From Opitutales bacterium (GTDB lineage: Bacteria > Verrucomicrobiota > Verrucomicrobiia > Opitutales > JABSRG01), in assembly GCA_049599475.1 (NCBI GenBank), contig JBMYOQ010000067.1:1-23102 (forward strand): a stretch of DNA of 23,102 bases, given 5' to 3'. The position numbers and the translations under genes were made by a program. This document shows positions 4,517 to 23,055 of this stretch, piece by piece. Numbering within the stretch: position 1 is the first letter of the stretch; the number at the start of each line of letters is the position of its first letter. The notes under the pieces are model-generated. The model saw nothing but the letters and a program-made list of their open reading frames with translations. It did not search any database and was not told the origin of the DNA.

Positions 4517-5776
4517 CTACTCTATAAGGCTTTGATAGACGGCTGCTTTGACCTTTTCAGCCAAAGGTTGAATTTCTAGGTATCCACGATTCTGTGTGAA
4601 GAAAATGATTACAACATCATGCTCGGGAACCAACCAGAAGTGGGTGCTTGCCGCACCCGACCAGCCCGCTTCGCCGACGCTCGTCAAATTTCCCGCTAGC
4701 TCGGGATTGACCATTACTTTGACCGCGCCACCAAAGCCATAGCCTTTCGCGAACCGCTCATACGGCGAACCGGGCGCTTCGTAAGGCAATTCATCCTCTG
4801 CCAAATGATTGCTCAGCATGAAGTCGACGGACGCTTTCGATAAAATTTTTTTTCCCTTCCACTTGCCTCCTTGCATCAGCATGCGGGCAAATCGCCAATA
4901 CCCTCGGGCATCCCCGACGAGACCTGTTCCACCCCAGGTTACGCGATCTTCTGACAACCAGGAAATGTCCTCGGTTTTTTCTGCATATTCACCAGCCTCA
5001 TTCAATACATACAGATTCATGAGGCGATCCAAGTTGCCCGGCGCCACGTTGTAGCCAAAATCGTCCATTCCCAAAGGCTCAAATAGCTCTCGCCTCACGA
5101 AGGCGTCATAGGGCTCACCTGCGAGATATTCGACCAAACCCGCTAGAACATCCTGCGAGTATCCATAGCTCCACTGGGCACCTGGCTCAAACATCAGGGG
5201 CGCATCCGCGATCATGAGCGCTACCTCAGAAATAGATGCACCTACACCAGGCAATTCCAGGGACTTCAGCTTCATGTGCGCGGGATGATCGCTATACGCA
5301 TAGTAGAATCCAGCTGTGTGCATCATCAGGTCCAACACTGTTGGGTAGCTATCAGGCACCTTGGTGACCATATTCTCCCCTTCACCCGATACATAGACCC
5401 GCAGTTTTTCCATTTCCGGCCAAAGCTCGTTAATCGGATCATCCAGTAAAAAGGCGCCGCGTTCATAGAGAACAAAAGCAGCAGCCACTGTAATCGGCTT
5501 GGTCATCGAAAAATAGCGATACAGGGTATCCTCCTCCACCGGCTGCGAAGCGCCATCCATGGTCCCGTAGGTGGAAAATTTCTCGATATCTCCGCCTTGC
5601 GAAATAAGGACCGCGCCACCAGGAAATTTCTTTTCCTCAATCCATGCCTCCATCATCCCATCGATGCGGTCGAGGCGATCGGAATTCAGCTGCATTTCAG
5701 CGAACGCCGAGACCCCAACACTCAGAGAGAAGATAACTAATAAGCTCAGCGCGCTCCTTCGGAAAACGGTATACAT
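4517..5776 (-). CDS. Serine hydrolase, beta-lactamase class C/esterase family, secreted
   Basis: SxxK motif (FSMTKP), LMMHTAG, FEPGAQWSYG and GWSGAAST. Start reassigned to ATG 5776, which has GGAGGTGG just upstream, begins a signal peptide (MYTVFRRSALSLLVIFSLSVGVSAFA) and removes the overlap with the upstream gene. Confidence 0.88.
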   Translation of the reverse strand: MYTVFRRSALSLLVIFSLSVGVSAFAEMQLNSDRLDRIDGMMEAWIEEKKFPGGAVLISQGGDIEKFSTYGTMDGASQPVEEDTLYRYFSMTKPITVAAAFVLYERGAFLLDDPINELWPEMEKLRVYVSGEGENMVTKVPDSYPTVLDLMMHTAGFYYAYSDHPAHMKLKSLELPGVGASISEVALMIADAPLMFEPGAQWSYGYSQDVLAGLVEYLAGEPYDAFVRRELFEPLGMDDFGYNVAPGNLDRLMNLYVLNEAGEYAEKTEDISWLSEDRVTWGGTGLVGDARGYWRFARMLMQGGKWKGKKILSKASVDFMLSNHLAEDELPYEAPGSPYERFAKGYGFGGAVKVMVNPELAGNLTSVGEAGWSGAASTHFWLVPEHDVVIIFFTQNRGYLEIQPLAEKVKAAVYQSLIE

Positions 5777-5807
5777 ACATCCACCTCCAGCAGATTCCCA
5801 TCCACTT

Positions 5808-6221
5808 TTAAGGCTCCCGAAGCTTACCCTTGGCAACGACACCAGACCGGGCATGCACACCATGCATAACTAGAGTCAAAGCAAGTATGGCGAATGTTTG
5901 GATCCAATAGGGAGCCGTCGTTTGACCTTCGGCGAGTAGATTTTTGAGATCTCCAGAAACGTTCACACTACTCAACCCTAGACAGGTGAGGTACATCAAT
6001 ACAATTGCCGAACTCCGGAGCTGTGGTAGCCGAAACGCTTGAATAAACAAAATTACATATGCGCAGACCGCAAATGATATGATCCGATCTTGGTAGGCAT
6101 AGAACGGCACATCGTAGTAGATAAATAATACCGGGACCTTGATACTGAAAAAGTGCGCCGTTGCCATAAATATAAAGTAGACGGCGTTCATCAAAAACAG
6201 GGTATCAGCTAGCTTTCTCAT
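5808..6221 (-). CDS. Hypothetical membrane protein (about 4 TM segments)
   Basis: 137-aa ORF with four hydrophobic stretches; overlaps the upstream ORF by 17 nt, in the same orientation as its neighbours. Confidence 0.75.
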   Translation of the reverse strand: MRKLADTLFLMNAVYFIFMATAHFFSIKVPVLFIYYDVPFYAYQDRIISFAVCAYVILFIQAFRLPQLRSSAIVLMYLTCLGLSSVNVSGDLKNLLAEGQTTAPYWIQTFAILALTLVMHGVHARSGVVAKGKLREP

Positions 6222-11162: not shown

Positions 11163-11291
11163 GTGAAGGCTCCCCTCAATACACCCTTCTACTGGTGGTT
11201 TAATCGCCGTCGCTATACGTTGGGTGCCGGACCCGAGGGGGGGTCCGGCACCGTTCCCAACCCACACTGTACACAAGCGTTTTTAAAATGA
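11163..11291 (+). CDS. Candidate 42-aa leader peptide/uORF (MKAPLNTPFYWWFNRRRYTLGAGPEGGSGTVPNPHCTQAFLK)
   Basis: Open frame from GTG 11163 to TGA 11289-11291, which overlaps the downstream ATG (ATGA). Contains the run TTC TAC TGG TGG TTT. No clear SD sequence. Confidence 0.42.
   Translation: MKAPLNTPFYWWFNRRRYTLGAGPEGGSGTVPNPHCTQAFLK
11219..11261 (+). promoter_or_regulatory. Strong GC hairpin without U-tract in the oxidoreductase leader
   Basis: Perfect 12-bp stem GGTGCCGGACCC (11223-11234)/GGGTCCGGCACC (11241-11252) with loop GAGGGG. An alternative base pairs GTTGGG (11219-11224) with CCCAAC (11256-11261). Confidence 0.75.
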
Positions 11292-12376
11292 GCCCCACCG
11301 ACACACCTATCCTTATAGTCGGTGCGGGGCTCGCAGGTTTGCATTTAGCCTGGTCTCTTCACCTGAAGGGACGCCCGTTCACGATTCTCTCTCACGACTC
11401 CGGAAAACCCGCCTGGCAAGCCTCGGCCGGTATCATAAACCCAGTAACCGGCAAGCGCGTGGTGAAATCCTGGCAAATCGATACCCTCCTGCCATTTGCA
11501 AGAGAACGATACGCCACCATCGCACACATTACCCAGGAACCCAGCGCCTATCATTCCACGCCCCTCGTGCGCTATTTTCGCGGCGATGCAGACGAGCGCC
11601 AGCGCTACCAGGAAAGGCGCAAGCAGGCAGACTATGCCCCTTATCTAAAACAAGAACCACAGGCAGACATAGACGGCTTTGAAATTGCCGAGAGCGGCTG
11701 GGTGGATGTCCAAGCTTTCGTCGAGTCTTCCAGGAAATATTTTAAATCAACCAATTGTCTGGAAGAGACCCCCACCCCCTTTGACGCAAGAAGCATCGAG
11801 TTTGGCGATAATACGATCTCATGGAGCGTTCGAGACTGGAGTCATGTTGTCTTTTGCGAAGGTTATCACGGAGTAAACAATCCTTTTTTCGACTGGCTCG
11901 ATTATCGTATTTCACGTGGCGATGTCCTAGACTTCAAGGTCCCAGGGCCTCTGCCGCAGCACATCTTAAATCGCGAAAAATGGGTATTGCCGCTCACAGA
12001 ATCATCCGGACGCACCGGATCGACCTATGCGTGGGATGATCTTGAATCAGCACCTTCACCCACCGACGCCGATCCACTTTTGAAGGCGTGGCCTGATCTC
12101 CTTCCAGAATTGGAAGATGCCGAAATCAAGCAACACCGCGTGGGTATCCGCCCGGGAACCAACGATTCAAAACCCTACGCAGGCCCCCACCCCCTAGAGC
12201 GACGCATCGCCATTTTAAATGGATTTGGCTCGAAAGGAGCCTCTCAAAGCCCGTGGTGCGCGGAAGAGCTCTCAAAGTTTATCTGTGAAGGCCATTCGCT
12301 TCCTGAAGAGATCAACCCGTCCCGCAGGCTCAAATTTTTGAAACAGCCTCTCGAGGCCCCTAGAGACATACTTTGA
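11288..12376 (+). CDS. FAD-dependent oxidoreductase, D-amino-acid/glycine oxidase (DAO) superfamily, resembling a stand-alone MnmC oxidase domain
   Basis: IVGAGLAG Rossmann motif, ASAGIINPVTGKR, GIRPGTNDSKPYAG and NGFGSKG. Confidence 0.88.
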   Translation: MSPTDTPILIVGAGLAGLHLAWSLHLKGRPFTILSHDSGKPAWQASAGIINPVTGKRVVKSWQIDTLLPFARERYATIAHITQEPSAYHSTPLVRYFRGDADERQRYQERRKQADYAPYLKQEPQADIDGFEIAESGWVDVQAFVESSRKYFKSTNCLEETPTPFDARSIEFGDNTISWSVRDWSHVVFCEGYHGVNNPFFDWLDYRISRGDVLDFKVPGPLPQHILNREKWVLPLTESSGRTGSTYAWDDLESAPSPTDADPLLKAWPDLLPELEDAEIKQHRVGIRPGTNDSKPYAGPHPLERRIAILNGFGSKGASQSPWCAEELSKFICEGHSLPEEINPSRRLKFLKQPLEAPRDIL

Positions 12377-14391: not shown

Positions 14392-14838
14392 TTATACCCC
14401 CTGAGCACCTTCCAACGCGAGAGTCTGCAAGTATGCCAAAAGCGAATACACGATGTATGCCTCCTGTAATCCGCTTTTAAACTGACCTGGGTCAAATTCT
14501 GCATTTTCTAGGGCCTCATCGGTAACATCCTTCAAAGCAGTCTCACGCAAATGCAGTCTCAGGCATGAGCACGCTTTCATAACAGCAAATAACTCCTCAA
14601 GAGTGAGGTCTATCGCCCCAACACCAAAATCTTCTTTTTTTACGAAGCTGAGCAAGCCTTCCAAAACCTCCAAATTCTCACTCTCTAAGCCTTCAACCCA
14701 AATCTCCAGATCATCCTCGGCCTCCGGGGAATATCCTCGAGCTTTTCCCGTTTCTTGAAGGGACTCGTAGATACCTTGCAACATTCTCCGCAAAAAAGCC
14801 CGGACTGCGGGGTCCATCCTGATATTTAATTCCGGCAT
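14392..14838 (-). CDS. DUF2017 (AosR-like) family protein
   Basis: Lies 3 nt downstream of clpS. AVMKACSCLRLHL and VYSLLAYLQTLALE resemble the DUF2017 motifs (W...LNDLRLAL; VYxWLxxLQExL) of the protein that follows clpS in Actinobacteria. Confidence 0.62.
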   Translation of the reverse strand: MPELNIRMDPAVRAFLRRMLQGIYESLQETGKARGYSPEAEDDLEIWVEGLESENLEVLEGLLSFVKKEDFGVGAIDLTLEELFAVMKACSCLRLHLRETALKDVTDEALENAEFDPGQFKSGLQEAYIVYSLLAYLQTLALEGAQGV

Positions 14839-14841
14839 ATC

Positions 14842-15147
14842 CTATTGCTCCTCCGCCGATTCCAAGACCGCCGTCAATTGCCATTGCTGCAGGGTATAGA
14901 CAAATGCCTCCGCTTTCTCAAAATCACCCGTCCACACGACACTCTTTCCCTGCTCGTGGACTTCCATCATGTGTCGCGTAGCCTTCTCTTTGGAATATCC
15001 AAAAACATTCTGAAAAACGAACACCACGTAATTCATCAGATTTACCGGATCATTCATGACGATCACATTCCACGGTGTCGCTAAATCTGCTTCCGGCTCC
15101 AAGACCGGCGAAGCCAGCGGGTTTTCCTGGGATAAATTCCAATGCAT
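14842..15147 (-). CDS. clpS: ATP-dependent Clp protease adaptor ClpS (NDPVN type)
   Basis: PWNVIVMNDPVNLMNYVVFVFQNVFGYSKEKATRHMMEVHEQGKSVV...AE; start overlaps the sufU stop (TGATG). Confidence 0.95.
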   Translation of the reverse strand: MHWNLSQENPLASPVLEPEADLATPWNVIVMNDPVNLMNYVVFVFQNVFGYSKEKATRHMMEVHEQGKSVVWTGDFEKAEAFVYTLQQWQLTAVLESAEEQ

Positions 15148-15587
15148 CAGACGTCGGTTTCAGATAATGCTTTTTCCAGCACATCCCAGGGTAAACGCGC
15201 ACAGCGTAATCGGGCAGGAAATTGCTGGACGCCGTTGAGTGCATGAAGATCGCCATGCAAGTCGACTTCTAGCGGGTCTCCGCCTTCGAGGCCTTCCAGC
15301 ACTGCCTTTTTCAAAGACACCACCACCTGCGCTGATTTTCCTGATACGGCTTCAACTAACATTGAGGTGGAAGCAGTACAAATCGCACAGCTTGCCCCTT
15401 GGAAACGCACCTCGCGGACGGTTCCAGTCTCCAAATCAATATCTAGCGCCAGCCGCACTTCATCGCCGCATGTCGGGTTGCGCCCCTCGGCATGCACCCA
15501 ATTCTCGGGCGCTTCGCCCTTTCCTATTGGAGCTTTATTGTGCTTCAGGATGATTTCCTGATACAGCGCCTTCAGGTCTTCAGACAT
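15147..15587 (-). CDS. sufU: SufU (NifU-like) sulfur-transfer/Fe-S assembly protein
   Basis: LYQEIILKH, NPTCGDEV, SCAICTAS and FPARLRCARLPW, with the SufU-type insertion before the last Cys. Start reassigned to ATG 15587, 4 nt after the sufS stop. Confidence 0.92.
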   Translation of the reverse strand: MSEDLKALYQEIILKHNKAPIGKGEAPENWVHAEGRNPTCGDEVRLALDIDLETGTVREVRFQGASCAICTASTSMLVEAVSGKSAQVVVSLKKAVLEGLEGGDPLEVDLHGDLHALNGVQQFPARLRCARLPWDVLEKALSETDV

Positions 15588-15591
15588 CGTG

Positions 15592-16851
15592 CTATCCGAA
15601 AAATTTCTGGATCTTGGCAACAGCAGCGACAAAGCGATCCACCTCTTCTTCAGTATTATAGAATGCTAGTGAGGCACGCGCCGTCCCCACGATAGCGTAA
15701 CGCGTCATTAATGGCTGACAGCAATGGTGCCCCGCTCGAATGCATATATTCTCTGCGTCAAGGAATGTGGCCATATCATGCGGATGCACACCATCGATCA
15801 AAAATGAAGTAACACTTACTTTCTTCTCAGCCTCACCATAGATGCGCAACCCAGGTATTTCTTTCAAGCCAGCCTCGAGCCGTACACGTAGTGCATCTTC
15901 AAAGACATGCATTTCTTCTGGATCAAAAGCAAAGACATATTGAATCGCCGTCGCGAGGCCGATTGCGCCGCTAATATGCGGTGTTCCCGCTTCAAACCGA
16001 GCAGGCGCTTTGGCAAATGTAGTGCCATCAAATGACACCTTATCGATCATGTCTCCTCCACCCTGGTAAGGAGGCATGCGCTCTAAATGCTCCGCTTTGG
16101 CATAAAGGACTCCGACACCCGTCGGACCAAATATTTTGTGACTCGAGAATACATAGAAATCGCAATCGAGTGTCTCCACACAAGACTTCATCCCATGAGG
16201 CACAGCCTGCGCGCCATCGAGTAATACAGGGACACCTCGCTCCCGGGCAGCCGCAATGACGGCCTCGACAGGATTGATCGTACCCAAAGCATTCGACACA
16301 TGGCTCACCGCGACCATTGCAACGCCATCATCAAGCTGTTCCGACAGGCCCGAGAGTTCCCACTCTCCGGCATCCGTAACAGGAATACGCAATATCCGAA
16401 GCCCACGCTCTTCCGCGAGCAATTGCCAGGGCACGATATTGGCATGATGCTCCAGCTCTGAGAGCAAGATCGCATCTCCCGCTTTCAAATGCAGTTTTCC
16501 AAATGACTGAGCAACCAAATTAACAGCTTCTGTAGCACCGCGTGTGAAGATAACAGAATTGCTATCGGAGGCTCCCAGAAATTTCGCAATCGTTTCGCGT
16601 GCGGCTTCGTAAGCCGAGGTCGCGGAATCACTCAGATGATAAACGCCGCGATGAATATTCGCGTAACCTGTGGTCAGGAATTCACGCTCGGCATCCAAGA
16701 CTTGGATGGGTTTTTGAGCCGAGGCCGCACTATCAAAAAATACGAGAGGTTTCCCATTTCGCTCAGTCTGCAAAATGGGAAAATCTGTCCGCGCCCGCGC
16801 AAAGGTAGCGCGTGCGCGGTCTAGAAGAGAAATGTCCACAGCGGATTCCAT
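15592..16851 (-). CDS. sufS: Cysteine desulfurase, SufS (class II) family
   Basis: FDSAASAQKP, ANIHRG, EHHANIVPW, DGAQAVPH, FSSHKIFGPTG (PLP Lys), RFEAGTP and RAGHHC (catalytic Cys). Confidence 0.97.
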   Translation of the reverse strand: MESAVDISLLDRARATFARARTDFPILQTERNGKPLVFFDSAASAQKPIQVLDAEREFLTTGYANIHRGVYHLSDSATSAYEAARETIAKFLGASDSNSVIFTRGATEAVNLVAQSFGKLHLKAGDAILLSELEHHANIVPWQLLAEERGLRILRIPVTDAGEWELSGLSEQLDDGVAMVAVSHVSNALGTINPVEAVIAAARERGVPVLLDGAQAVPHGMKSCVETLDCDFYVFSSHKIFGPTGVGVLYAKAEHLERMPPYQGGGDMIDKVSFDGTTFAKAPARFEAGTPHISGAIGLATAIQYVFAFDPEEMHVFEDALRVRLEAGLKEIPGLRIYGEAEKKVSVTSFLIDGVHPHDMATFLDAENICIRAGHHCCQPLMTRYAIVGTARASLAFYNTEEEVDRFVAAVAKIQKFFG

Positions 16852-16954
16852 ATAAGCACTCTAACGCAAAAACACGATCTGTCCACTTCAGCTTAACACC
16901 AAGGAGCGGAGATCTGAGGACATATCAATGTCGCTACTCCCGTAAGTTTTTAGT

Positions 16955-17194
16955 GGTAGCAAGCCGCCGATCTCCGAGCGGTGGACGGAGGCGAAGCCGG
17001 AGATGGCGTAGTCATGTCACAATTTAAATGCGAAATTAGGGGAGTCTAGAGGTAGCGGCGGACGACCCCGGCCGCCATAACTCGGCTTAGCCGCCCCAGC
17101 TTGCGCGCCCATGATCGCCCAGTGGTCGGTCGCTACCCCCCTAAATAAGCGCGCCTAGCTACTCCGGAGTGGCTCACCGAGACGGTTCGCCCAC
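16955..17194. repeat. Cluster of REP/REPIN-like palindromic elements
   Basis: GGTAGC-led hairpin at 16955-16984 with a degenerate partner to about 17011; inverted GGTAGCG... pair at 17051-17078 and 17111-17137; palindrome at 17157-17174; hairpin GTGGCTCACCGAGACGGTTCGCCCAC at 17169-17194. Confidence 0.7.
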
Positions 17195-17238
17195 TTAACC
17201 CTGAATTCGCCTTTACAGTTTTCGTGCTTCTTTGCGCC

Positions 17239-19047
17239 TTACAGGCGGCACACCAGCAGCTCACGCTCGAAGATCATCTCCTTGGGCAGGCGATCAAAGA
17301 GATGCAGGAAGAGCTCGGTGTGTTGCATGGTTTGCATCTTGGTGCGCTCCGGGTCGAAGCTCATCAACGCATTCCACTCCTCTTCACTGAAATCAAGGCC
17401 ACGCCAATCGATCGAATCGTACTTCGGCATCCACCCCAGCGGCGTCTCTGTCGCAGACGAAAGCCCACGGGTGCGCTCAACAATCCAGCGCAGGACCCGC
17501 ATGTTATCCCGGAAGCCGGGCCACATAAATTTGCCATCTTCGTCCAGACGGAACCAATTAACATTAAAGACGCGCGGTGGCTCTTTGAGGCTTTTTCCAA
17601 ATTGGATATAGTGGCGGAAGTAATCGCCCATGTGATAGCCGATAAACGGGAGCATCGCCATGGGATCGCGGCGCAGTTCACCCTGTGTACCTTCGGCAGC
17701 TGCGGTCTTTTCGGAACCAATCGTCGCCCCAAGGTAGACGCCGTAGGAGTAGTTAAATGCTTGGTAGACGAGCGGCACGTCTGTTACCCGACGCCCTCCA
17801 TAAATGAAGGCACGGATCGGCACACCCACCGGGTTTTCCCAATCGGGGTCGATACACGGGCAGTTTTCCGCCGGTGCGGTGAAGCGGCTATTGGGGTGCG
17901 CTGCAAGCGTCCCGCTCTCGGGAGTCCAGTCGTTGCCCAGCCAATCAATCAAATGCGCCGGCTTCTCTTTAGTCATCCCCTCCCACCAGACATCGCCATC
18001 GTCGGTGAGCGCAACATTCGTGAAGATTGTGTTCTTGCTGCAGGAATCCATGGCGTTGGGATTTGTCGCGTAGGATGTCCCCGGGGCGACTCCGAAAAAG
18101 CCTGCTTCGGGATTAATGGCATGGGGGACTCCCTCGTCATCCGGTTTAATCCAAGCAATATCGTCACCCACACAGGTAACCTTCCAGCCTTCCATTTCGT
18201 CGGGCGGAATCAGCATGGCAAAATTGGTCTTTCCGCAAGCACTCGGGAAGGCAGCGGATACATAGGTCTTTTCGCCATCCGGGGATTCCACCCCCAATAT
18301 CAACATATGCTCGGCCAACCACCCTTCGTCGCGGGCCATCACCGAGGCAATTCGGAGCGCCAGGCACTTTTTCCCGAGCAGCGCATTCCCGCCGTAGCCA
18401 CTACCAAAGGAGACAATCGTCCGCTCCTCCGGGAAATGCACGACGTAGGTGTTTTCTGGATTACAGGGCCAGGCAACATCTTCCTGACCAGGCTCCAGCG
18501 GGCACCCCACACTGTGGAGGCAGGGAACGAAGAAGCCGCGTTCACCCAAAACATTCAAGACAGCATCCCCGATGCGTGCCATGATACGCATGTTTACTAC
18601 CACATACGGTGAGTCCGACAGCTCCACGCCGATCTGAGAAATGTTTGAACCAATCGGCCCCATTGAAAAAGGCACGACATACATCGTGCGCCCACGCATG
18701 CAGCCTTTGAAGAGCTTCTTCATCCGGCGGCGCATCTCCCGGGGCTCTTCCCAATTGTTGGTAGGGCCCGCACCGTCTTTATCTTGGCTACAGATAAAAG
18801 TCCGTTTCTCTACCCGAGCCACATCTCGCGGATCGGAGCGAAAGAGGTAACTGCCCGGGCGCTTCTCTTCGTTGAGCTTGATACACATGCCCGACTCGAC
18901 CATCTCGCCAAACAGACGATCGGCCTCCTCCTGGGTGCCATCGCACCAGTAAACGGAGTCGGGCTCGCACATCTCCACCATTTTACCCACCCATTTGAGC
19001 AGGGCAGCGTGTTTGCATTTCGGGTTCGAGTAGTCGGCTAATGGCAT
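17239..19047 (-). CDS. pckG: Phosphoenolpyruvate carboxykinase (GTP)
   Basis: [43 protein letters not shown] (P-loop), [27 protein letters not shown] and [10 protein letters not shown]. Confidence 0.98.
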
Positions 19048-19295
19048 ATGTAAAAACAGTGAAACAAGTTAATCGTTAATAAATCGGAGCATAGACGCTG
19101 CTTATAAGAAATAATCTATTCTCAATAATTTTGAGATAAGCCCAAGGGAAATTTCCTCAACATGTTAATAAGTTTTTCTTAAATTATGGCTTTACATTAT
19201 TTTAAAAACTTATGACATTACCCCTGACCTAAGCGTAAGCGCTTCTACTGCTAGGAAGCGTGCGTGCTTATCTCAGTTAACCGTTTCAACCTGCT
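19048..19295. promoter_or_regulatory. AT-rich divergent promoter region shared by the two PEPCK genes, with palindromes and a 5'UTR hairpin
   Basis: CTTATAAG (19101-19108), TCTCAA-N5-TTGAGA (19120-19136), GGAAATTTCC (19147-19156) and an imperfect hairpin at 19230-19270. Confidence 0.6.
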
Positions 19296-22200
19296 ATGAA
19301 CCAAGCCACCGCATTCGGAATAGATCCTGAAAAGAATAACGGATATGCTCAATCTGAGCACATCAAAGAGTACACTGATTTGAAGCTCGAGGCACTCGGA
19401 CTTCGCGATTCTGAAGAAAATCCTTCACCATTCTCAGAAATCGCCGGCTCTCTTCTAAAGAACTTCCAGGAAAAATCCCGCCTGCTTTCAGATTACCTTC
19501 CACCCGTGGACGCCCGCATCCAGGCATTCATCGACAGCACATTTGGCGATGTGCATGACAAAGAGGACTTACACTTGCCCTCTCAAACCTTTACACTCGA
19601 TCAACATGGGATGGCCCGCCTGGTTTCCCTACCTGAGGTAGGCGATACGTTTGAGTCTCCCATCATGACGAGTTATCGCGTCCAACAGGGCGTCCTGCAC
19701 AATCCACTCAGCGACCGACGCACCACCAAGGGCGTTTTCCACGTCTGCGAAGATGGTTTACCCATCGCTGATGATAAAAAAGCAGTGCCGCGCGTAGCCG
19801 TTGCGCGACTCCTCGCCAAGGCTCTGAAGCCACCCAAGGATATTGCACAACTGCCCTATCTCTCTGGACAAAAAGATTCTCCACCGGTGTGGGTGTCTTT
19901 GATGCTGCGCCCGCTGGTATGCCCTGAAGTGCCTGGATTCATCAAGGAGAAACGCATGGAAGTCCGCTTCTTTGCTCCTGGCACCTTGGTATCAAACCTG
20001 GACTTTGTAGAGTCTATCTTCGGCAACGCTGGCGATCCCACCCTTGCAGACAACGATGCGGGACTCGATATCGACGGCTGGACCGGCACATCTGGCTGCG
20101 TGATCCTGGCACCTCACCTAAACGAGACCACCAAGAAGGAACTCGGCCTACCTCATATCTCAGAAGCGACCGAGCGCCAGAAGCGCGACGGCATGTGCTG
20201 GGAAAAGGAGGACGAGCTCTACAACGAAGGTGGCGCGTTTAAGGTAACCATTCGCGACCAGCAAGGTACCGTAGTCACCCTGATTTCTGACAGTTACTTC
20301 GGCTACTGTAAGAAAGAGGTGAAGACCCAGATCGGCTACTCTGCGAACCTGATGGGCATCTGTGAAGAAGAACACGCAGGCGGAGCCCTCGTCTACTCTT
20401 CTTACGATTTGGGCGAGGAATTCCAATTCGATCACTATTTCGACGCTGTTGAGCATACTTTCTCAGAGGTCGTCGAAAAATGTGCTCCACTTCTCGATAT
20501 CCAGGAAGAGGGCTACGCGATCGACAAGAAGTATCCCGATATCTGGTACGTCCCTGAAGACGTACGCATTTCTTTACTTGAACAGAAAGTAGAATGGAAC
20601 CTGGACGGTAAGACGATCAGCAAGCGTCTTGTACCAGAGACCACCTACGTATTACCTTCTGGATACAAAGTGGAAATGGTAAAACCCGCCAAAGGTCGCC
20701 GCTGGCGCCTGAAGGGCACCGTCTCCGAGGGCCTCTTCTGTCACAAGCCCTGCACCGTTTCTGGTGGGGGTAAATCCGAGATATCTAAATCCATCTCTGA
20801 TGCCATTATCAGCGGGCCCGTCTATATTAAAGACTACCAAGACGATTTCGCCCAGGTAGACACCATCTTCAAGAAGGATGTTAGCAACCGCTTCAACGAA
20901 TTTGCCAACCGTGCACCCGACCCACGCCCCTTCCTCGATGAAGAGCGCTCACTGGGGTCCGTGATCAAGCTGCTCACGCCGTCTCCTATCTACACGGTAG
21001 AATACAACGCCTGGCTCGATACCATTCCTCAGCATATCAAGGATTTGGCCTTCGTCATCAAGCGTTTCTATCGCAAAGATTGGGGCGACAACTGGCAGGA
21101 GCGCTTCAGCGTCGATACCATCGACGGACGCCCTGGTAACGAGTTGCGCTACAAAAGCCAAAAGCTGATCACCCAATTCCTCCGTGTCGGATACAATCCT
21201 GATGGCACCTGGCGGACATTCTCTCTGCGTAAGGACTTCATGCCTGCGATCAAGATATCTCAAGAAGACGATATCAGCGGCGCAGTCGTTGTCCCAAGCA
21301 CAGCGGTCGAAGGCCTGGATCCAGAGACAACCAATCCGTCCATGAAGTTCATCGAGAACTGTGAGTCTCGTTTCTTCCAACGTCCCGACGATGCCATTCA
21401 CCGTGGCTACGACATTCAGACAGAGCTCGATATGGCAGGGCCTGGTAATTTGTTCGCCAATTACGAGCCGCTCACCAAGCAGGACGCAATCGAGCAATTC
21501 GAAGATCCAATCCGTTTCGAGCAATACACTCAACCGGTTCAGGATATGATCAAGGCATTCATCGAGGATGAAAATTCTCCTGAATACTTCTGCTCCCCTG
21601 CGAATCCACGGATAGTCGACGGCAAGCCTACCAAAAATCCACGCTACCAGCAGGTCCGTCCAGACCTTCTGCGCCTCCGCGAAAACTACCTCTGCGACAT
21701 GGGCACGCGCCTGAACCGCAAGCTGAGCGCGGAAGCTCCAGTGCACAACCCTGTAGGAGCGGTTCTTCCAGGGCGTCGTAACAACCCACCTGAGCTATCA
21801 GCAGGCATCCGTTCACTCGCCGTGTATAATCCAATCCACTACATGGAGCTGCCTGAGCTCTTCATGGAATTCATCGCGAGTATCACCGGTAAGTCTCCTT
21901 CCACTACAGGAGCAGGCTCTGAAGGTGCGATGACCAAGGCTCCGTTCAACTGCCTCTGGGCAGTGCACGATCTAAACGCCGCACTCATCTCCTTCGCCAC
22001 GACCCAATACGATGCCTTCCTAACATCTGCGGGTTGCACCGGACCAGATTATCGAGTCGATCACGACGTAAGTCTCCTAATCCCTGAGCTCTGGAGCCGC
22101 ATGCGCCCTGAAGAACGCAAGGCGGACTACCTCATCGAGAAGAGATATATCGAGCCGATCAAGGACTTCGAATACAACGGAGAAACTATCCCAGCAAGCC

Positions 22201-22787
22201 GCCTCGGCTACCGTATTACCGATTCCTTTGTAAGGATATTCTTCGGACGTATCTTCAACAATCCTTCTGCTGTATTCCCTGAGGAGATGCTCAAGCCTGA
22301 GACTCAAGGAATGGATGTCTATGTAGATGGCATTAAAAATATCGCCGACGCACACCAGTGGGTTGCGCAATATTACCTCAATGACGGATCCGTCGAAGAG
22401 GCTCTGCCACCGCTCAAGGCCCTCCTCTACATCATGGCAACCGGCAGCTACGAAGGCAAGGGTCTCACCGATCCTGAAATCCGCGCCATGTTCGAGCCGG
22501 AAGCTATCCTTAACAGCGACTACTACGCAGAGCGCCTAAGCAACTTGCAAACACGCGACGCCCACCTAGTCGAAAAGCAAAAGGCATACATCGCCGAATA
22601 CATCGAGAAAACAGGATTTGCTCAATACGAGCAGACCCTCGCAGATCTCGATGCAAAGAAAGCCGCGATCGAAACCGAAGGCTACACAGCCGGCCTGAAA
22701 GGCACACTCGGTTGCGGGTTCAATTACGCAAATAAAGGCAAAACCAATGACGCAGCACAAAACGAAGACATGCTGCAAACAGTCTAA
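19296..22787 (+). CDS. Pyrophosphate-dependent PEP carboxykinase (PPi-PEPCK, PEP carboxytransphosphorylase)
   Basis: 1163 aa, the typical size for this class. Motifs QGVLHNP-SDRRTTKGVFH, LVSNLDFVESIFGNAGDP, YFGYCKKEVKTQI, EEEHAGGA, HKPCTVSGGGKSEISKS, FQRPDDAIHRGYD and TGKSPSTTGAGSEGA match the family characterised in Entamoeba and Propionibacterium. Confidence 0.92.
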   Translation: MNQATAFGIDPEKNNGYAQSEHIKEYTDLKLEALGLRDSEENPSPFSEIAGSLLKNFQEKSRLLSDYLPPVDARIQAFIDSTFGDVHDKEDLHLPSQTFTLDQHGMARLVSLPEVGDTFESPIMTSYRVQQGVLHNPLSDRRTTKGVFHVCEDGLPIADDKKAVPRVAVARLLAKALKPPKDIAQLPYLSGQKDSPPVWVSLMLRPLVCPEVPGFIKEKRMEVRFFAPGTLVSNLDFVESIFGNAGDPTLADNDAGLDIDGWTGTSGCVILAPHLNETTKKELGLPHISEATERQKRDGMCWEKEDELYNEGGAFKVTIRDQQGTVVTLISDSYFGYCKKEVKTQIGYSANLMGICEEEHAGGALVYSSYDLGEEFQFDHYFDAVEHTFSEVVEKCAPLLDIQEEGYAIDKKYPDIWYVPEDVRISLLEQKVEWNLDGKTISKRLVPETTYVLPSGYKVEMVKPAKGRRWRLKGTVSEGLFCHKPCTVSGGGKSEISKSISDAIISGPVYIKDYQDDFAQVDTIFKKDVSNRFNEFANRAPDPRPFLDEERSLGSVIKLLTPSPIYTVEYNAWLDTIPQHIKDLAFVIKRFYRKDWGDNWQERFSVDTIDGRPGNELRYKSQKLITQFLRVGYNPDGTWRTFSLRKDFMPAIKISQEDDISGAVVVPSTAVEGLDPETTNPSMKFIENCESRFFQRPDDAIHRGYDIQTELDMAGPGNLFANYEPLTKQDAIEQFEDPIRFEQYTQPVQDMIKAFIEDENSPEYFCSPANPRIVDGKPTKNPRYQQVRPDLLRLRENYLCDMGTRLNRKLSAEAPVHNPVGAVLPGRRNNPPELSAGIRSLAVYNPIHYMELPELFMEFIASITGKSPSTTGAGSEGAMTKAPFNCLWAVHDLNAALISFATTQYDAFLTSAGCTGPDYRVDHDVSLLIPELWSRMRPEERKADYLIEKRYIEPIKDFEYNGETIPASRLGYRITDSFVRIFFGRIFNNPSAVFPEEMLKPETQGMDVYVDGIKNIADAHQWVAQYYLNDGSVEEALPPLKALLYIMATGSYEGKGLTDPEIRAMFEPEAILNSDYYAERLSNLQTRDAHLVEKQKAYIAEYIEKTGFAQYEQTLADLDAKKAAIETEGYTAGLKGTLGCGFNYANKGKTNDAAQNEDMLQTV

Positions 22788-22813: not shown

Positions 22814-22851
22814 AAAGGCCCCACGGACATCCATCCGCGGGGCCTTTTTTT
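22814..22851 (+). terminator. Intrinsic terminator of the PPi-PEPCK gene
   Basis: AAAGGCCCCACGGA-loop-TCCGCGGGGCC followed by T7, 26 nt after the stop codon. Confidence 0.9.
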
Positions 22852-22874
22852 ATTTTGTAAAGCCAGATCACGGA

Positions 22875-23055
22875 GCTCCCACGGCTCGGAGAGCCGCGGC
22901 TACCAGAAACAAAACATGCACACTCACACCTTAGCCCACCTCACAGGTAGCCGATTTCCAAGCGGCTGAGCCTATACGCTCCCACGGCTCGGAGAGCCGC
23001 GGCTACCAGAAATTAAAACAAGCAAACTCACACCTTAGCCCACCTCACAGGTAGC
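22875..23055. repeat. BIME-like direct repeat: two ~77-nt units (period 103 nt), each carrying a GTAG-class REP
   Basis: Units 22875-22951 and 22978-23055 both start GCTCCCACGGCTCGGAGAGCCGCGGCTACCAGAAA and end ACTCACACCTTAGCCCACCTCACAGGTAGC. A degenerate REP in the opposite orientation lies between them. Confidence 0.85.

What the first reader, a model, noticed from the sequence alone, without database searches (positions are those of the whole stretch)
17239..22787. Head-to-head pair of GTP-dependent and PPi-dependent PEP carboxykinases: a possible PEP/oxaloacetate flux switch
Seen: intact pckG (minus) and a 1163-aa PPi-PEPCK (plus) diverge from one 248-bp intergenic region. Known: both interconvert oxaloacetate and PEP but share little sequence. 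GTP-PEPCK is usually gluconeogenic, while PPi-PEPCK in Propionibacterium and Entamoeba is linked to CO2-fixing, PPi-conserving fermentative flux and is often annotated as hypothetical. Inference: sharing one control region suggests reciprocal or joint regulation that sets flux direction or energy currency. Run together, the two enzymes would sum to GTP + Pi <-> GDP + PPi, an NTP/PPi transphosphorylation loop. I know of no description of this arrangement.
Basis: partly seen in the sequence, partly recalled or inferred. Interest (0 to 1): 0.8.

Follow-up and report, generated by a model that had tools for sequence, protein, structure and literature searches.

The report
Two carboxykinases, neighbours by inheritance
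Two intact genes for enzymes that link glycolysis to the citric acid cycle, one predicted to use GTP and one pyrophosphate, sit head to head in one small bacterial family, most likely as the leftover of an older gene block that lost the repressor gene once lying between them rather than as a dedicated metabolic switch.

Summary
Observation confirmed: an intact GTP-PEPCK (NF003253, 975 bits; cut-off 504) and a PPi-PEPCK (full-length match to PDB 6K31 and 8E1U) diverge across 248 bp. The link is real but narrow. Of 79 order genomes holding both genes, 5 have them within 1.2 kb, all in this family; 18 more phylum genomes add none. In 2 of the 5, a GbsR/MarR-like repressor gene lies between them. 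Pieces of a block pckG<-gbsR | PPi-PEPCK->mnmC1-like->mnmM recur in other families, so the bare pair likely arose by loss of the repressor. Its 18-bp operator is not detectable in this intergenic region. Other divergent pairs survive within the family at 35-58%, so retention is weak evidence of selection. The enzymes likely work in opposite directions: GTP-PEPCK towards PEP, PPi-PEPCK towards oxaloacetate plus PPi, which two PPi-phosphofructokinases and an H+-PPase could use. A joint loop would run GTP to PPi (about -8 kJ/mol), not PPi to GTP. No co-regulation was shown. My paper searches found no description of the pair. The scan earlier noted PPi-PEPCK beside other genes on other DNA, not this pair.

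The parts
17239..19047 (-). pckG, GTP-dependent PEP carboxykinase, 602 aa, intact
   Evidence: (NF003253 974.7 > 504); P-loop and metal-site motifs located (their roles recalled)
19048..19295 (.). 248-bp AT-rich divergent intergenic region; no consensus sigma-70 promoter call, no GbsR-type operator, no motif conserved with the next genus
   Evidence: best operator score 4.3 bits; 95th percentile of shuffles 5.2
19296..22787 (+). PPi-dependent PEP carboxykinase (PEP carboxytransphosphorylase), 1163 aa, intact
   Evidence: (6K31 1128 bits, 8E1U 1118 bits)
22814..22856 (+). predicted intrinsic terminator after the PPi-PEPCK gene
11288..12376 (+). MnmC1-like FAD oxidoreductase; likely the displaced member of the older block (its orthologue directly follows PPi-PEPCK in G003, G004, G077, G114, G177)
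   Evidence: (41% to the G004 copy, only hit in this genome)

Best explanation
The window holds two intact, single-copy PEP carboxykinase genes facing away from each other, which likely serve opposite fluxes and likely sit together because they are the remnant of an older gene block that lost the repressor gene between them. Shown: gene identities, the family-restricted link, the interposed GbsR/MarR-like gene in G002 and G004, and the lack of its operator here. Inferred history: an Opitutales ancestor carried pckG<-gbsR | PPi-PEPCK->mnmC1-like->mnmM (complete today only in G004); the clade G003+G000+G001 deleted gbsR and its operator, leaving two back-to-back promoters; most other lineages broke the block. 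Inferred physiology: GTP-PEPCK makes PEP from oxaloacetate for gluconeogenesis from TCA-cycle carbon; PPi-PEPCK fixes CO2 on PEP to refill oxaloacetate on sugars and releases PPi that PPi-phosphofructokinase or the H+-PPase can spend. Direction would be set mainly by substrate levels and enzyme kinetics, with at most loose transcriptional coupling.
For: Link confined to one family: 5 of 79 order genomes with both genes, next closest 27 kb; 0 of 18 added phylum genomes; 1 of 185 PPi-PEPCK loci has pckG nearby, and none has ATP-PEPCK, PEPC, PFK, PK, MDH or a PPase hit. Block fragments in five families: gbsR|PPi>mnmC1>mnmM in G077, G114, G177; gbsR>pckG in G006, G053; pckG|mnmC1>mnmM in G020; gbsR|mnmC1 in G015, G052, G056, G099, G117. 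RpoB tree: family 98/99, G003+G000+G001 100/100, G002+G004 100/99. Operator TTTCAGTAATTACTGAAA precedes the repressor in 25 of 30 loci, absent from G000, G001, G003 intergenic regions (4.3, -0.6, -9.2 bits). Unrelated tRNA-modification genes (MnmM 198 > 135 bits) stay with the block more widely than pckG does. Background retention of divergent pairs 7/18, 7/12, 6/17. PPi sinks in G000: two PPi-PFKs above cut-off, H+-PPase. Kinetic bias.
Against: Five of five retention across four genera, while flanking genes on both sides turned over, has only about a 0.2 chance under the background rates, and the conserved background pairs may themselves be selected. Two enzymes of one reaction being neighbours is unlikely a priori among some 4000 genes. 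G053 has a second operator (16.2 bits) between the repressor and pckG, so the regulator may really control PEP-node genes. The ancestral block is a parsimony reading of fragments; no formal reconstruction was run. PPi-PEPCK does not replace PEP carboxylase across the order (48 of 113 with it also have PEPC, against 19 of 88 without), and it is reversible in a methanotroph extract, so the anaplerotic role is not proven.
Confidence: 0.6

Rival explanations
1. A selected divergon: the two genes are kept together for reciprocal or joint transcriptional control of PEP/oxaloacetate flux, originally through the GbsR-like repressor and now through another factor or promoter interference.
For: 5 of 5 family genomes with both genes keep the link despite turnover of flanks. 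The operator lies 118 bp before the PPi-PEPCK match start in G004 and 222-298 bp in G077, G091, G114, G131, G162, G177 loci; G053 has one before pckG. Synteny segments in bacteria are generally co-expressed (PMC4873041 passages).
Against: 74 of 79 order genomes with both genes keep them apart. No operator or conserved motif in the bare intergenic regions. The operator sits directly at the repressor's own start, as for autoregulation, and in most loci the repressor heads membrane-protein or epimerase genes. G002's operator is weak (8.6 bits); G002, G004, G006 have none between repressor and pckG.
Confidence: 0.25
2. The pair exists to run as a substrate cycle, GTP + Pi -> GDP + PPi, supplying PPi for PPi-dependent glycolysis.
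For: Sum of tabulated values is -8.2 kJ/mol, Keq about 27 (each value carries +/-6 to 7 kJ/mol). G000 has two PPi-PFKs and an H+-PPase and no family I PPase was found in 5 of 5 genomes. NTP-to-PPi cycles are sought in Clostridium thermocellum, and PPi-PEPCK was suggested as a PPi source in Entamoeba and Propionibacterium (PMC8863071 passages).
Against: G000 also has an ATP-PFK and all 5 genomes have a DHHA2 family II PPase candidate, so extra PPi is not obviously needed. A cycle through freely diffusing PEP and oxaloacetate needs no gene adjacency, and 74 genomes with both genes could run it equally. H+-PPase was not found in G001 or G003.
Confidence: 0.1
3. The loop runs the other way and harvests biosynthetic PPi as GTP.
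For: Both reactions are near equilibrium and reversible.
Against: Uphill by about 8 kJ/mol at equal ratios and by 14-24 kJ/mol at illustrative cellular ratios (ratios assumed); against the reported kinetic bias of both enzyme types.
Confidence: 0.02
4. One of the two genes is inactive or has changed function.
For: No assay is available.
Against: Both are full length with motifs matching solved enzymes and 56-89% identical to orthologues in the family.
Confidence: 0.03

Closest known systems
PPi-dependent PEPCK (EC 4.1.1.38): PDB 6K31 (AiPEPCK) and 8E1U
   Same: Length (1163 vs 1153 and 1131 aa), near full-length match at over 1100 bits, shared GYCKKEVKTQI, EEH, SGGGKSEISKS and EDDI motifs; no Pfam or NCBIfam model hit, in line with the lack of an InterPro family noted in PMC8100219.
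   Different: Comes from an uncultured Opitutales-like lineage (inferred from record titles of close hits); untested biochemically; sits head to head with pckG.
Bacterial GTP-dependent PEPCK (pckG, EC 4.1.1.32; NF003253)
   Same: Above the equivalog cut-off; found in 185 of 201 phylum genomes, so an ordinary core gene here.
   Different: Only its neighbour.
Co-occurrence of PPi- and nucleotide-dependent PEPCKs in one genome
   Same: PMC8100219 states most organisms with PPi-PEPCK also hold ATP/GTP-PEPCK; P. propionicum has both (PMC7650540 passage).
   Different: Neither passage mentions gene adjacency.
GbsR/OpuAR/CydE MarR-type repressors
   Same: The interposed gene in G002 and G004 hits NF047500 (CudC, 51 bits), TrmB and MarR_2 weakly and has a palindromic upstream site.
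   Different: Far below the CudC cut-off (218); not in the window's locus; PMC6207618 passages link the family to osmolyte and cydAB genes and report no consistent context for other members.
Predicted NTP-to-PPi cycles of Clostridium thermocellum (Ppdk-malate shunt, acetate cycling)
   Same: Same net stoichiometry, NTP + Pi -> NDP + PPi.
   Different: A two-PEPCK cycle is not among the passages read; that organism's PEPCK does not use Pi.

Membership tests
GTP-dependent PEPCK | Score above curated family cut-off with N-terminal and P-loop domains | tested here: met
   NF003253 974.7 > 504; PF17297 and PF00821 full length
GTP-dependent PEPCK | PCK-specific, P-loop and kinase-2 motifs intact | tested here: met
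   [13 protein letters not shown] 215, FPSACGKT 267, VGDDIAW 293, HPNSRF 384, aligned to PDB 9E32; motif roles recalled
GTP-dependent PEPCK | GTP-dependent activity | not testable with these tools
   needs an assay
PPi-dependent PEPCK | Full-length homology to characterised enzymes, about 1100-1150 aa | tested here: met
   6K31 residues 48-1148 and 8E1U residues 9-1125 matched
PPi-dependent PEPCK | Conserved metal, substrate and P-loop motifs | tested here: met
   motifs at 333, 357, 483, 656 match both structures; roles recalled, primary papers not held
PPi-dependent PEPCK | Pi/PPi-dependent activity; homodimer | not testable with these tools
   needs an assay; no structure or complex job was run
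Conserved co-regulated divergon | Divergent arrangement kept in distant lineages | tested here: not met
   0 of 74 order genomes outside the family and 0 of 18 added phylum genomes; fragments suggest an older link that was broken
Conserved co-regulated divergon | Retention above the background for divergent pairs | tested here: inconclusive
   kept in G003, G002, G004 against backgrounds 7/12, 7/18, 6/17; joint about 0.2
Conserved co-regulated divergon | Shared conserved operator in the intergenic region | tested here: not met
   GbsR-type site absent; three-way alignment shows no clear motif; only three sequences were available
Conserved co-regulated divergon | Correlated or reciprocal expression | not testable with these tools
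   only assembled contigs of three RNA runs were available
PPi-supplying substrate cycle | PPi-consuming glycolytic or membrane enzymes present | tested here: met
   NF010675 561 > 273 and NF005121 733 > 395; H+-PPase
PPi-supplying substrate cycle | No soluble pyrophosphatase and no ATP-PFK bypass | tested here: not met
   family I not found but a DHHA2 family II candidate is present; ATP-PFK NF005301 585 > 400

The most novel reading that the evidence does not exclude
An ancestral Opitutales PEP/oxaloacetate divergon in which one GbsR-type repressor, binding TTTCAGTAATTACTGAAA, set the balance between a CO2-fixing, PPi-producing PEPCK and a gluconeogenic GTP-PEPCK, and which this family still keeps under selection; co-expressed, the two enzymes would form a two-step GTP-to-PPi converter feeding PPi-dependent glycolysis.
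Probability: 0.2. Interest if true: 0.6.

Novelty: new member of a known kind. Interest (0 to 1): 0.3.

Why it matters
Why many bacteria keep both a PPi- and a nucleotide-dependent PEPCK is open, and the source of PPi for PPi-dependent glycolysis is unsettled even in well-studied anaerobes. A locus holding both genes, with relatives that carry a candidate repressor and a strong predicted operator, gives a concrete place to test division of labour and a GTP-to-PPi cycle. As it stands the evidence points to inherited gene order, so the value is moderate: a missing annotation (PPi-PEPCK found in 113 of 201 order genomes without a family model) and a predicted operator for an unstudied regulator.

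Tried and rejected
1) Claim that the two PEPCKs are this genome's only PEP-oxaloacetate link: PEPC, pyruvate carboxylase/OAD, ATP-PEPCK, PPDK and malic enzyme were not found in G000, nor ppsA, aceA, aceB, fbp, glpX, cydA with E. coli queries. But PEPC is in G001, G002, G003, G006, and the gene near ppc in G001 maps 267 bp from the end of G000 contig C84, so ppc may lie in an assembly gap. Not used as evidence. 2) PPi-PEPCK as a replacement for PEPC: not supported (kin not independent). 3) Expression: three polyA seawater RNA runs of one study held 7-10% of the words; 7 of 9 laid contigs were at least 99% alike, 4 on pckG and 3 on PPi-PEPCK, at depth 2-6. Contigs give no strand, start or level and may be DNA; no conclusion. 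4) Promoter scan: no consensus site in the intergenic region. 5) Distant GbsR regulon in G000: the operator score picks two intergenic sites flanking the genome's own repressor copy on C39; of the other 10 top sites 9 fell inside ORFs; none at the PEPCK locus. 6) First RpoB tree had three wrong-frame ORFs and was replaced; G005 (no rpoB) and G190 (partial) are not in it. 7) First synteny control (7/20, 9/14, 7/20) included shadow ORFs and the pair itself; refined. It covers only about 0.3-0.4 Mb of each of three genomes. 8) ATP-PEPCK or other node genes beside PPi-PEPCK in 185 loci: none; four maeB hits cover only its C-terminal part. 9) Chiba 2015 and 2019 were not held; McLeod and Holyoak 2023 was seen only as a citation. 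No structure or complex prediction was run; the two proteins together exceed the complex tool's size limit.
Full report
Observation. The first is GTP-PEPCK by Pfam, by the NCBIfam equivalog (974.7 bits, cut-off 504) and by solved structures. The second has no family model but matches the two solved PPi-PEPCKs over nearly its full length at more than 1100 bits. They share no significant sequence similarity, each is single-copy, and a strong hairpin with a U-tract ends the PPi-PEPCK gene. The window is a whole contig of a 4.68-Mb, 96.6% complete assembly. Record titles of close homologues are mostly Opitutales, so I infer that order.

How far the arrangement is kept. The family has 7 genomes. 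Five hold both genes, and all five link them: directly in G000, G001 and G003 (gaps about 210-260 bp) and across about 1 kb in G002 and G004. G006 has no PPi-PEPCK match, and G005 (82% complete) no pckG match. In 201 order genomes at least 85% complete, PPi-PEPCK was found in 113, pckG in 137, both in 79; 20 have both on one contig, and after the five family members the closest pair is 27 kb apart. For the 59 on separate contigs I did not check every contig edge; a few, such as G038 and G164, start near an edge and cannot be excluded. A phylum sample of 201 gave pckG in 185 and PPi-PEPCK in 41, with 18 further genomes holding both and none adjacent, the closest at 74 kb. Among 185 PPi-PEPCK loci (79 genome, 80 metagenome, 26 with short flanks), one has pckG nearby, a locus as close as G001; 68 of 79 and 64 of 80 had at least 1 kb upstream.

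What lay between the genes. In G002 and G004 the gap holds a gene of about 180 aa, co-directional with pckG, with weak hits to GbsR/MarR-type models below cut-off. Close homologues occur in 47 of 201 order genomes. Mapping five genes over 24 loci gives overlapping fragments. G004 has pckG<-gbsR | PPi-PEPCK->oxidoreductase->methyltransferase. G003 lacks gbsR and the methyltransferase. G006 has a sensor kinase in place of PPi-PEPCK. G077, G114 and G177 have all but pckG. G053 has gbsR->pckG, and PPi-PEPCK->methyltransferase elsewhere. G020 has pckG facing away from oxidoreductase->methyltransferase. G015, G052, G056, G099 and G117 have gbsR facing away from the oxidoreductase. These lie on both sides of a deep split in an RpoB tree of 28 genomes, in which the family is one clade (98/99) and G003+G000+G001 another (100/100). 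The simplest reading (inference) is an old five-gene block, broken in most lineages, from which this clade deleted the repressor. The two passenger genes are MnmM (198 bits, cut-off 135) and an MnmC1-like oxidoreductase below cut-off: tRNA-modification functions unrelated to the PEP node, yet more widely tied to the block than pckG. In the window the oxidoreductase sits 5 kb away at 11288-12376.

Regulatory signal. An 18-bp palindrome, consensus TTTCAGTAATTACTGAAA, lies just before the repressor's start in 25 of 30 loci. A matrix trained without this family's sites scores G004 at 26.0 bits, G006 at 20.5 and G002 at 8.6, but the bare intergenic regions of G000, G001 and G003 at 4.3, -0.6 and -9.2, within shuffle range for G000 (95th percentile 5.2). 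G000's own repressor copy is on contig C39, flanked by two strong sites, ahead of an epimerase-family gene. One point favours real regulation in a relative: G053 has a second site (16.2 bits) between repressor and pckG. The promoter scan called nothing in the 248 bp, and aligning three intergenic regions showed no clear shared motif.

Control for inherited order. In about 0.3-0.4 Mb each of G002, G003 and G004, neighbouring divergent orthologue pairs other than this one were kept in G000 in 7 of 18, 7 of 12 and 6 of 17 cases. Treating G003 and the G002/G004 clade as two steps gives about 0.2 for retention at background rates. That neither shows nor excludes selection.

Likely physiology. PMC12547629 (passage) states that ATP/GTP-PEPCKs kinetically prefer decarboxylation and PPi-PEPCK carboxylation. 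G000 encodes two PPi-PFKs, one ATP-PFK and MDH above cut-offs, an H+-PPase, pyruvate kinase, a family II PPase candidate, and citrate synthase, 2-oxoglutarate dehydrogenase, NDK, PPK and a heme-copper oxidase by E. coli queries. PPDK, PEP synthase and FBPases were not found. So pckG is likely the gluconeogenic entry from TCA carbon, and PPi-PEPCK likely refills oxaloacetate while yielding usable PPi (inference). Against a neat split: PEPC occurs in 48 of 113 genomes with PPi-PEPCK and 19 of 88 without, its absence from G000 may be an assembly gap, and PPi-PEPCK also ran towards PEP in methanotroph extracts (PMC6860931 passages). The summed reaction, from values in PMC8100219 section 10, is -8.2 kJ/mol towards GDP + PPi, Keq about 27, with errors of 6-7 kJ/mol on each term. 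A loop would therefore spend GTP to make PPi, and it needs no gene adjacency.

Literature. Read: PMC8100219 (passages and all of section 10); passages only of PMC8863071, PMC10441589, PMC6207618, PMC12547629, PMC4873041, PMC6860931, PMC7650540. No supplements were opened. Searches returned 1, 41, 11, 207, 2, 0 and 0 papers; most were seen as listings only. Nothing I read describes adjacency of the two genes, but co-occurrence is known. The primary PPi-PEPCK papers were not held, and they or their supplements could mention gene context. Earlier scan notes record PPi-PEPCK beside other genes in two other genomes and are not support.

Verdict. A real, apparently undescribed, family-restricted arrangement of two known enzymes, best read as the remnant of an older block (0.6), with a selected divergon (0.25) and a GTP-to-PPi cycle (0.1) not excluded. 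Interest 0.3.

Noticed in passing
L109-L138 (upstream of the GbsR/MarR-like gene); G000 C39:4914 and C39:5472: Strong 18-bp palindrome TTTC[AG]-N8-[CT]GAAA before the repressor in 25 of 30 loci, a likely autoregulatory operator of an unstudied Opitutales regulator whose downstream genes vary (membrane proteins, epimerase, pckG).
   Followed up: partly
L105:5066-6729; window 11288-12376: A stand-alone MnmC1-like oxidoreductase followed by MnmM in several Opitutales families, which may together do the job of bifunctional MnmC in tRNA U34 modification.
   Followed up: partly
L396 (G106:C10:14391-19003): pckG and PEP carboxylase lie tail to tail, about 24 bp apart, in one genome of another family: another sporadic pairing of opposing PEP-node genes.
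   Followed up: no
families f4 and f8: Small genomes of about 0.8-1.1 Mb keep PPi-PEPCK (10 of 11 and 11 of 11) while pckG and PEPC were not found (0 of 11 each), so it may be their only PEP-oxaloacetate link.
   Followed up: no
L108:3847-6144 (G006): An ammonium transporter-histidine kinase fusion occupies the place of PPi-PEPCK in the block.
   Followed up: no
window 22875-23055 and 16852-17238: Two tandem copies of a 78-bp palindrome-containing repeat after the terminator, also on contig C100, and REP-like repeats downstream of pckG with copies on several contigs.
   Followed up: partly
window 14392-16851: sufS-sufU-clpS-unknown gene run downstream of pckG on the same strand, kept in G001 only among family loci examined.
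   Followed up: no
window 4517-5863: Beta-lactamase-family serine hydrolase, far below every class C beta-lactamase cut-off; likely an esterase or peptidase.
   Followed up: no
G000 C12:31916-33595: 559-aa DHHA2-containing family II pyrophosphatase candidate, long enough to carry regulatory CBS domains (recalled architecture, not tested).
   Followed up: no
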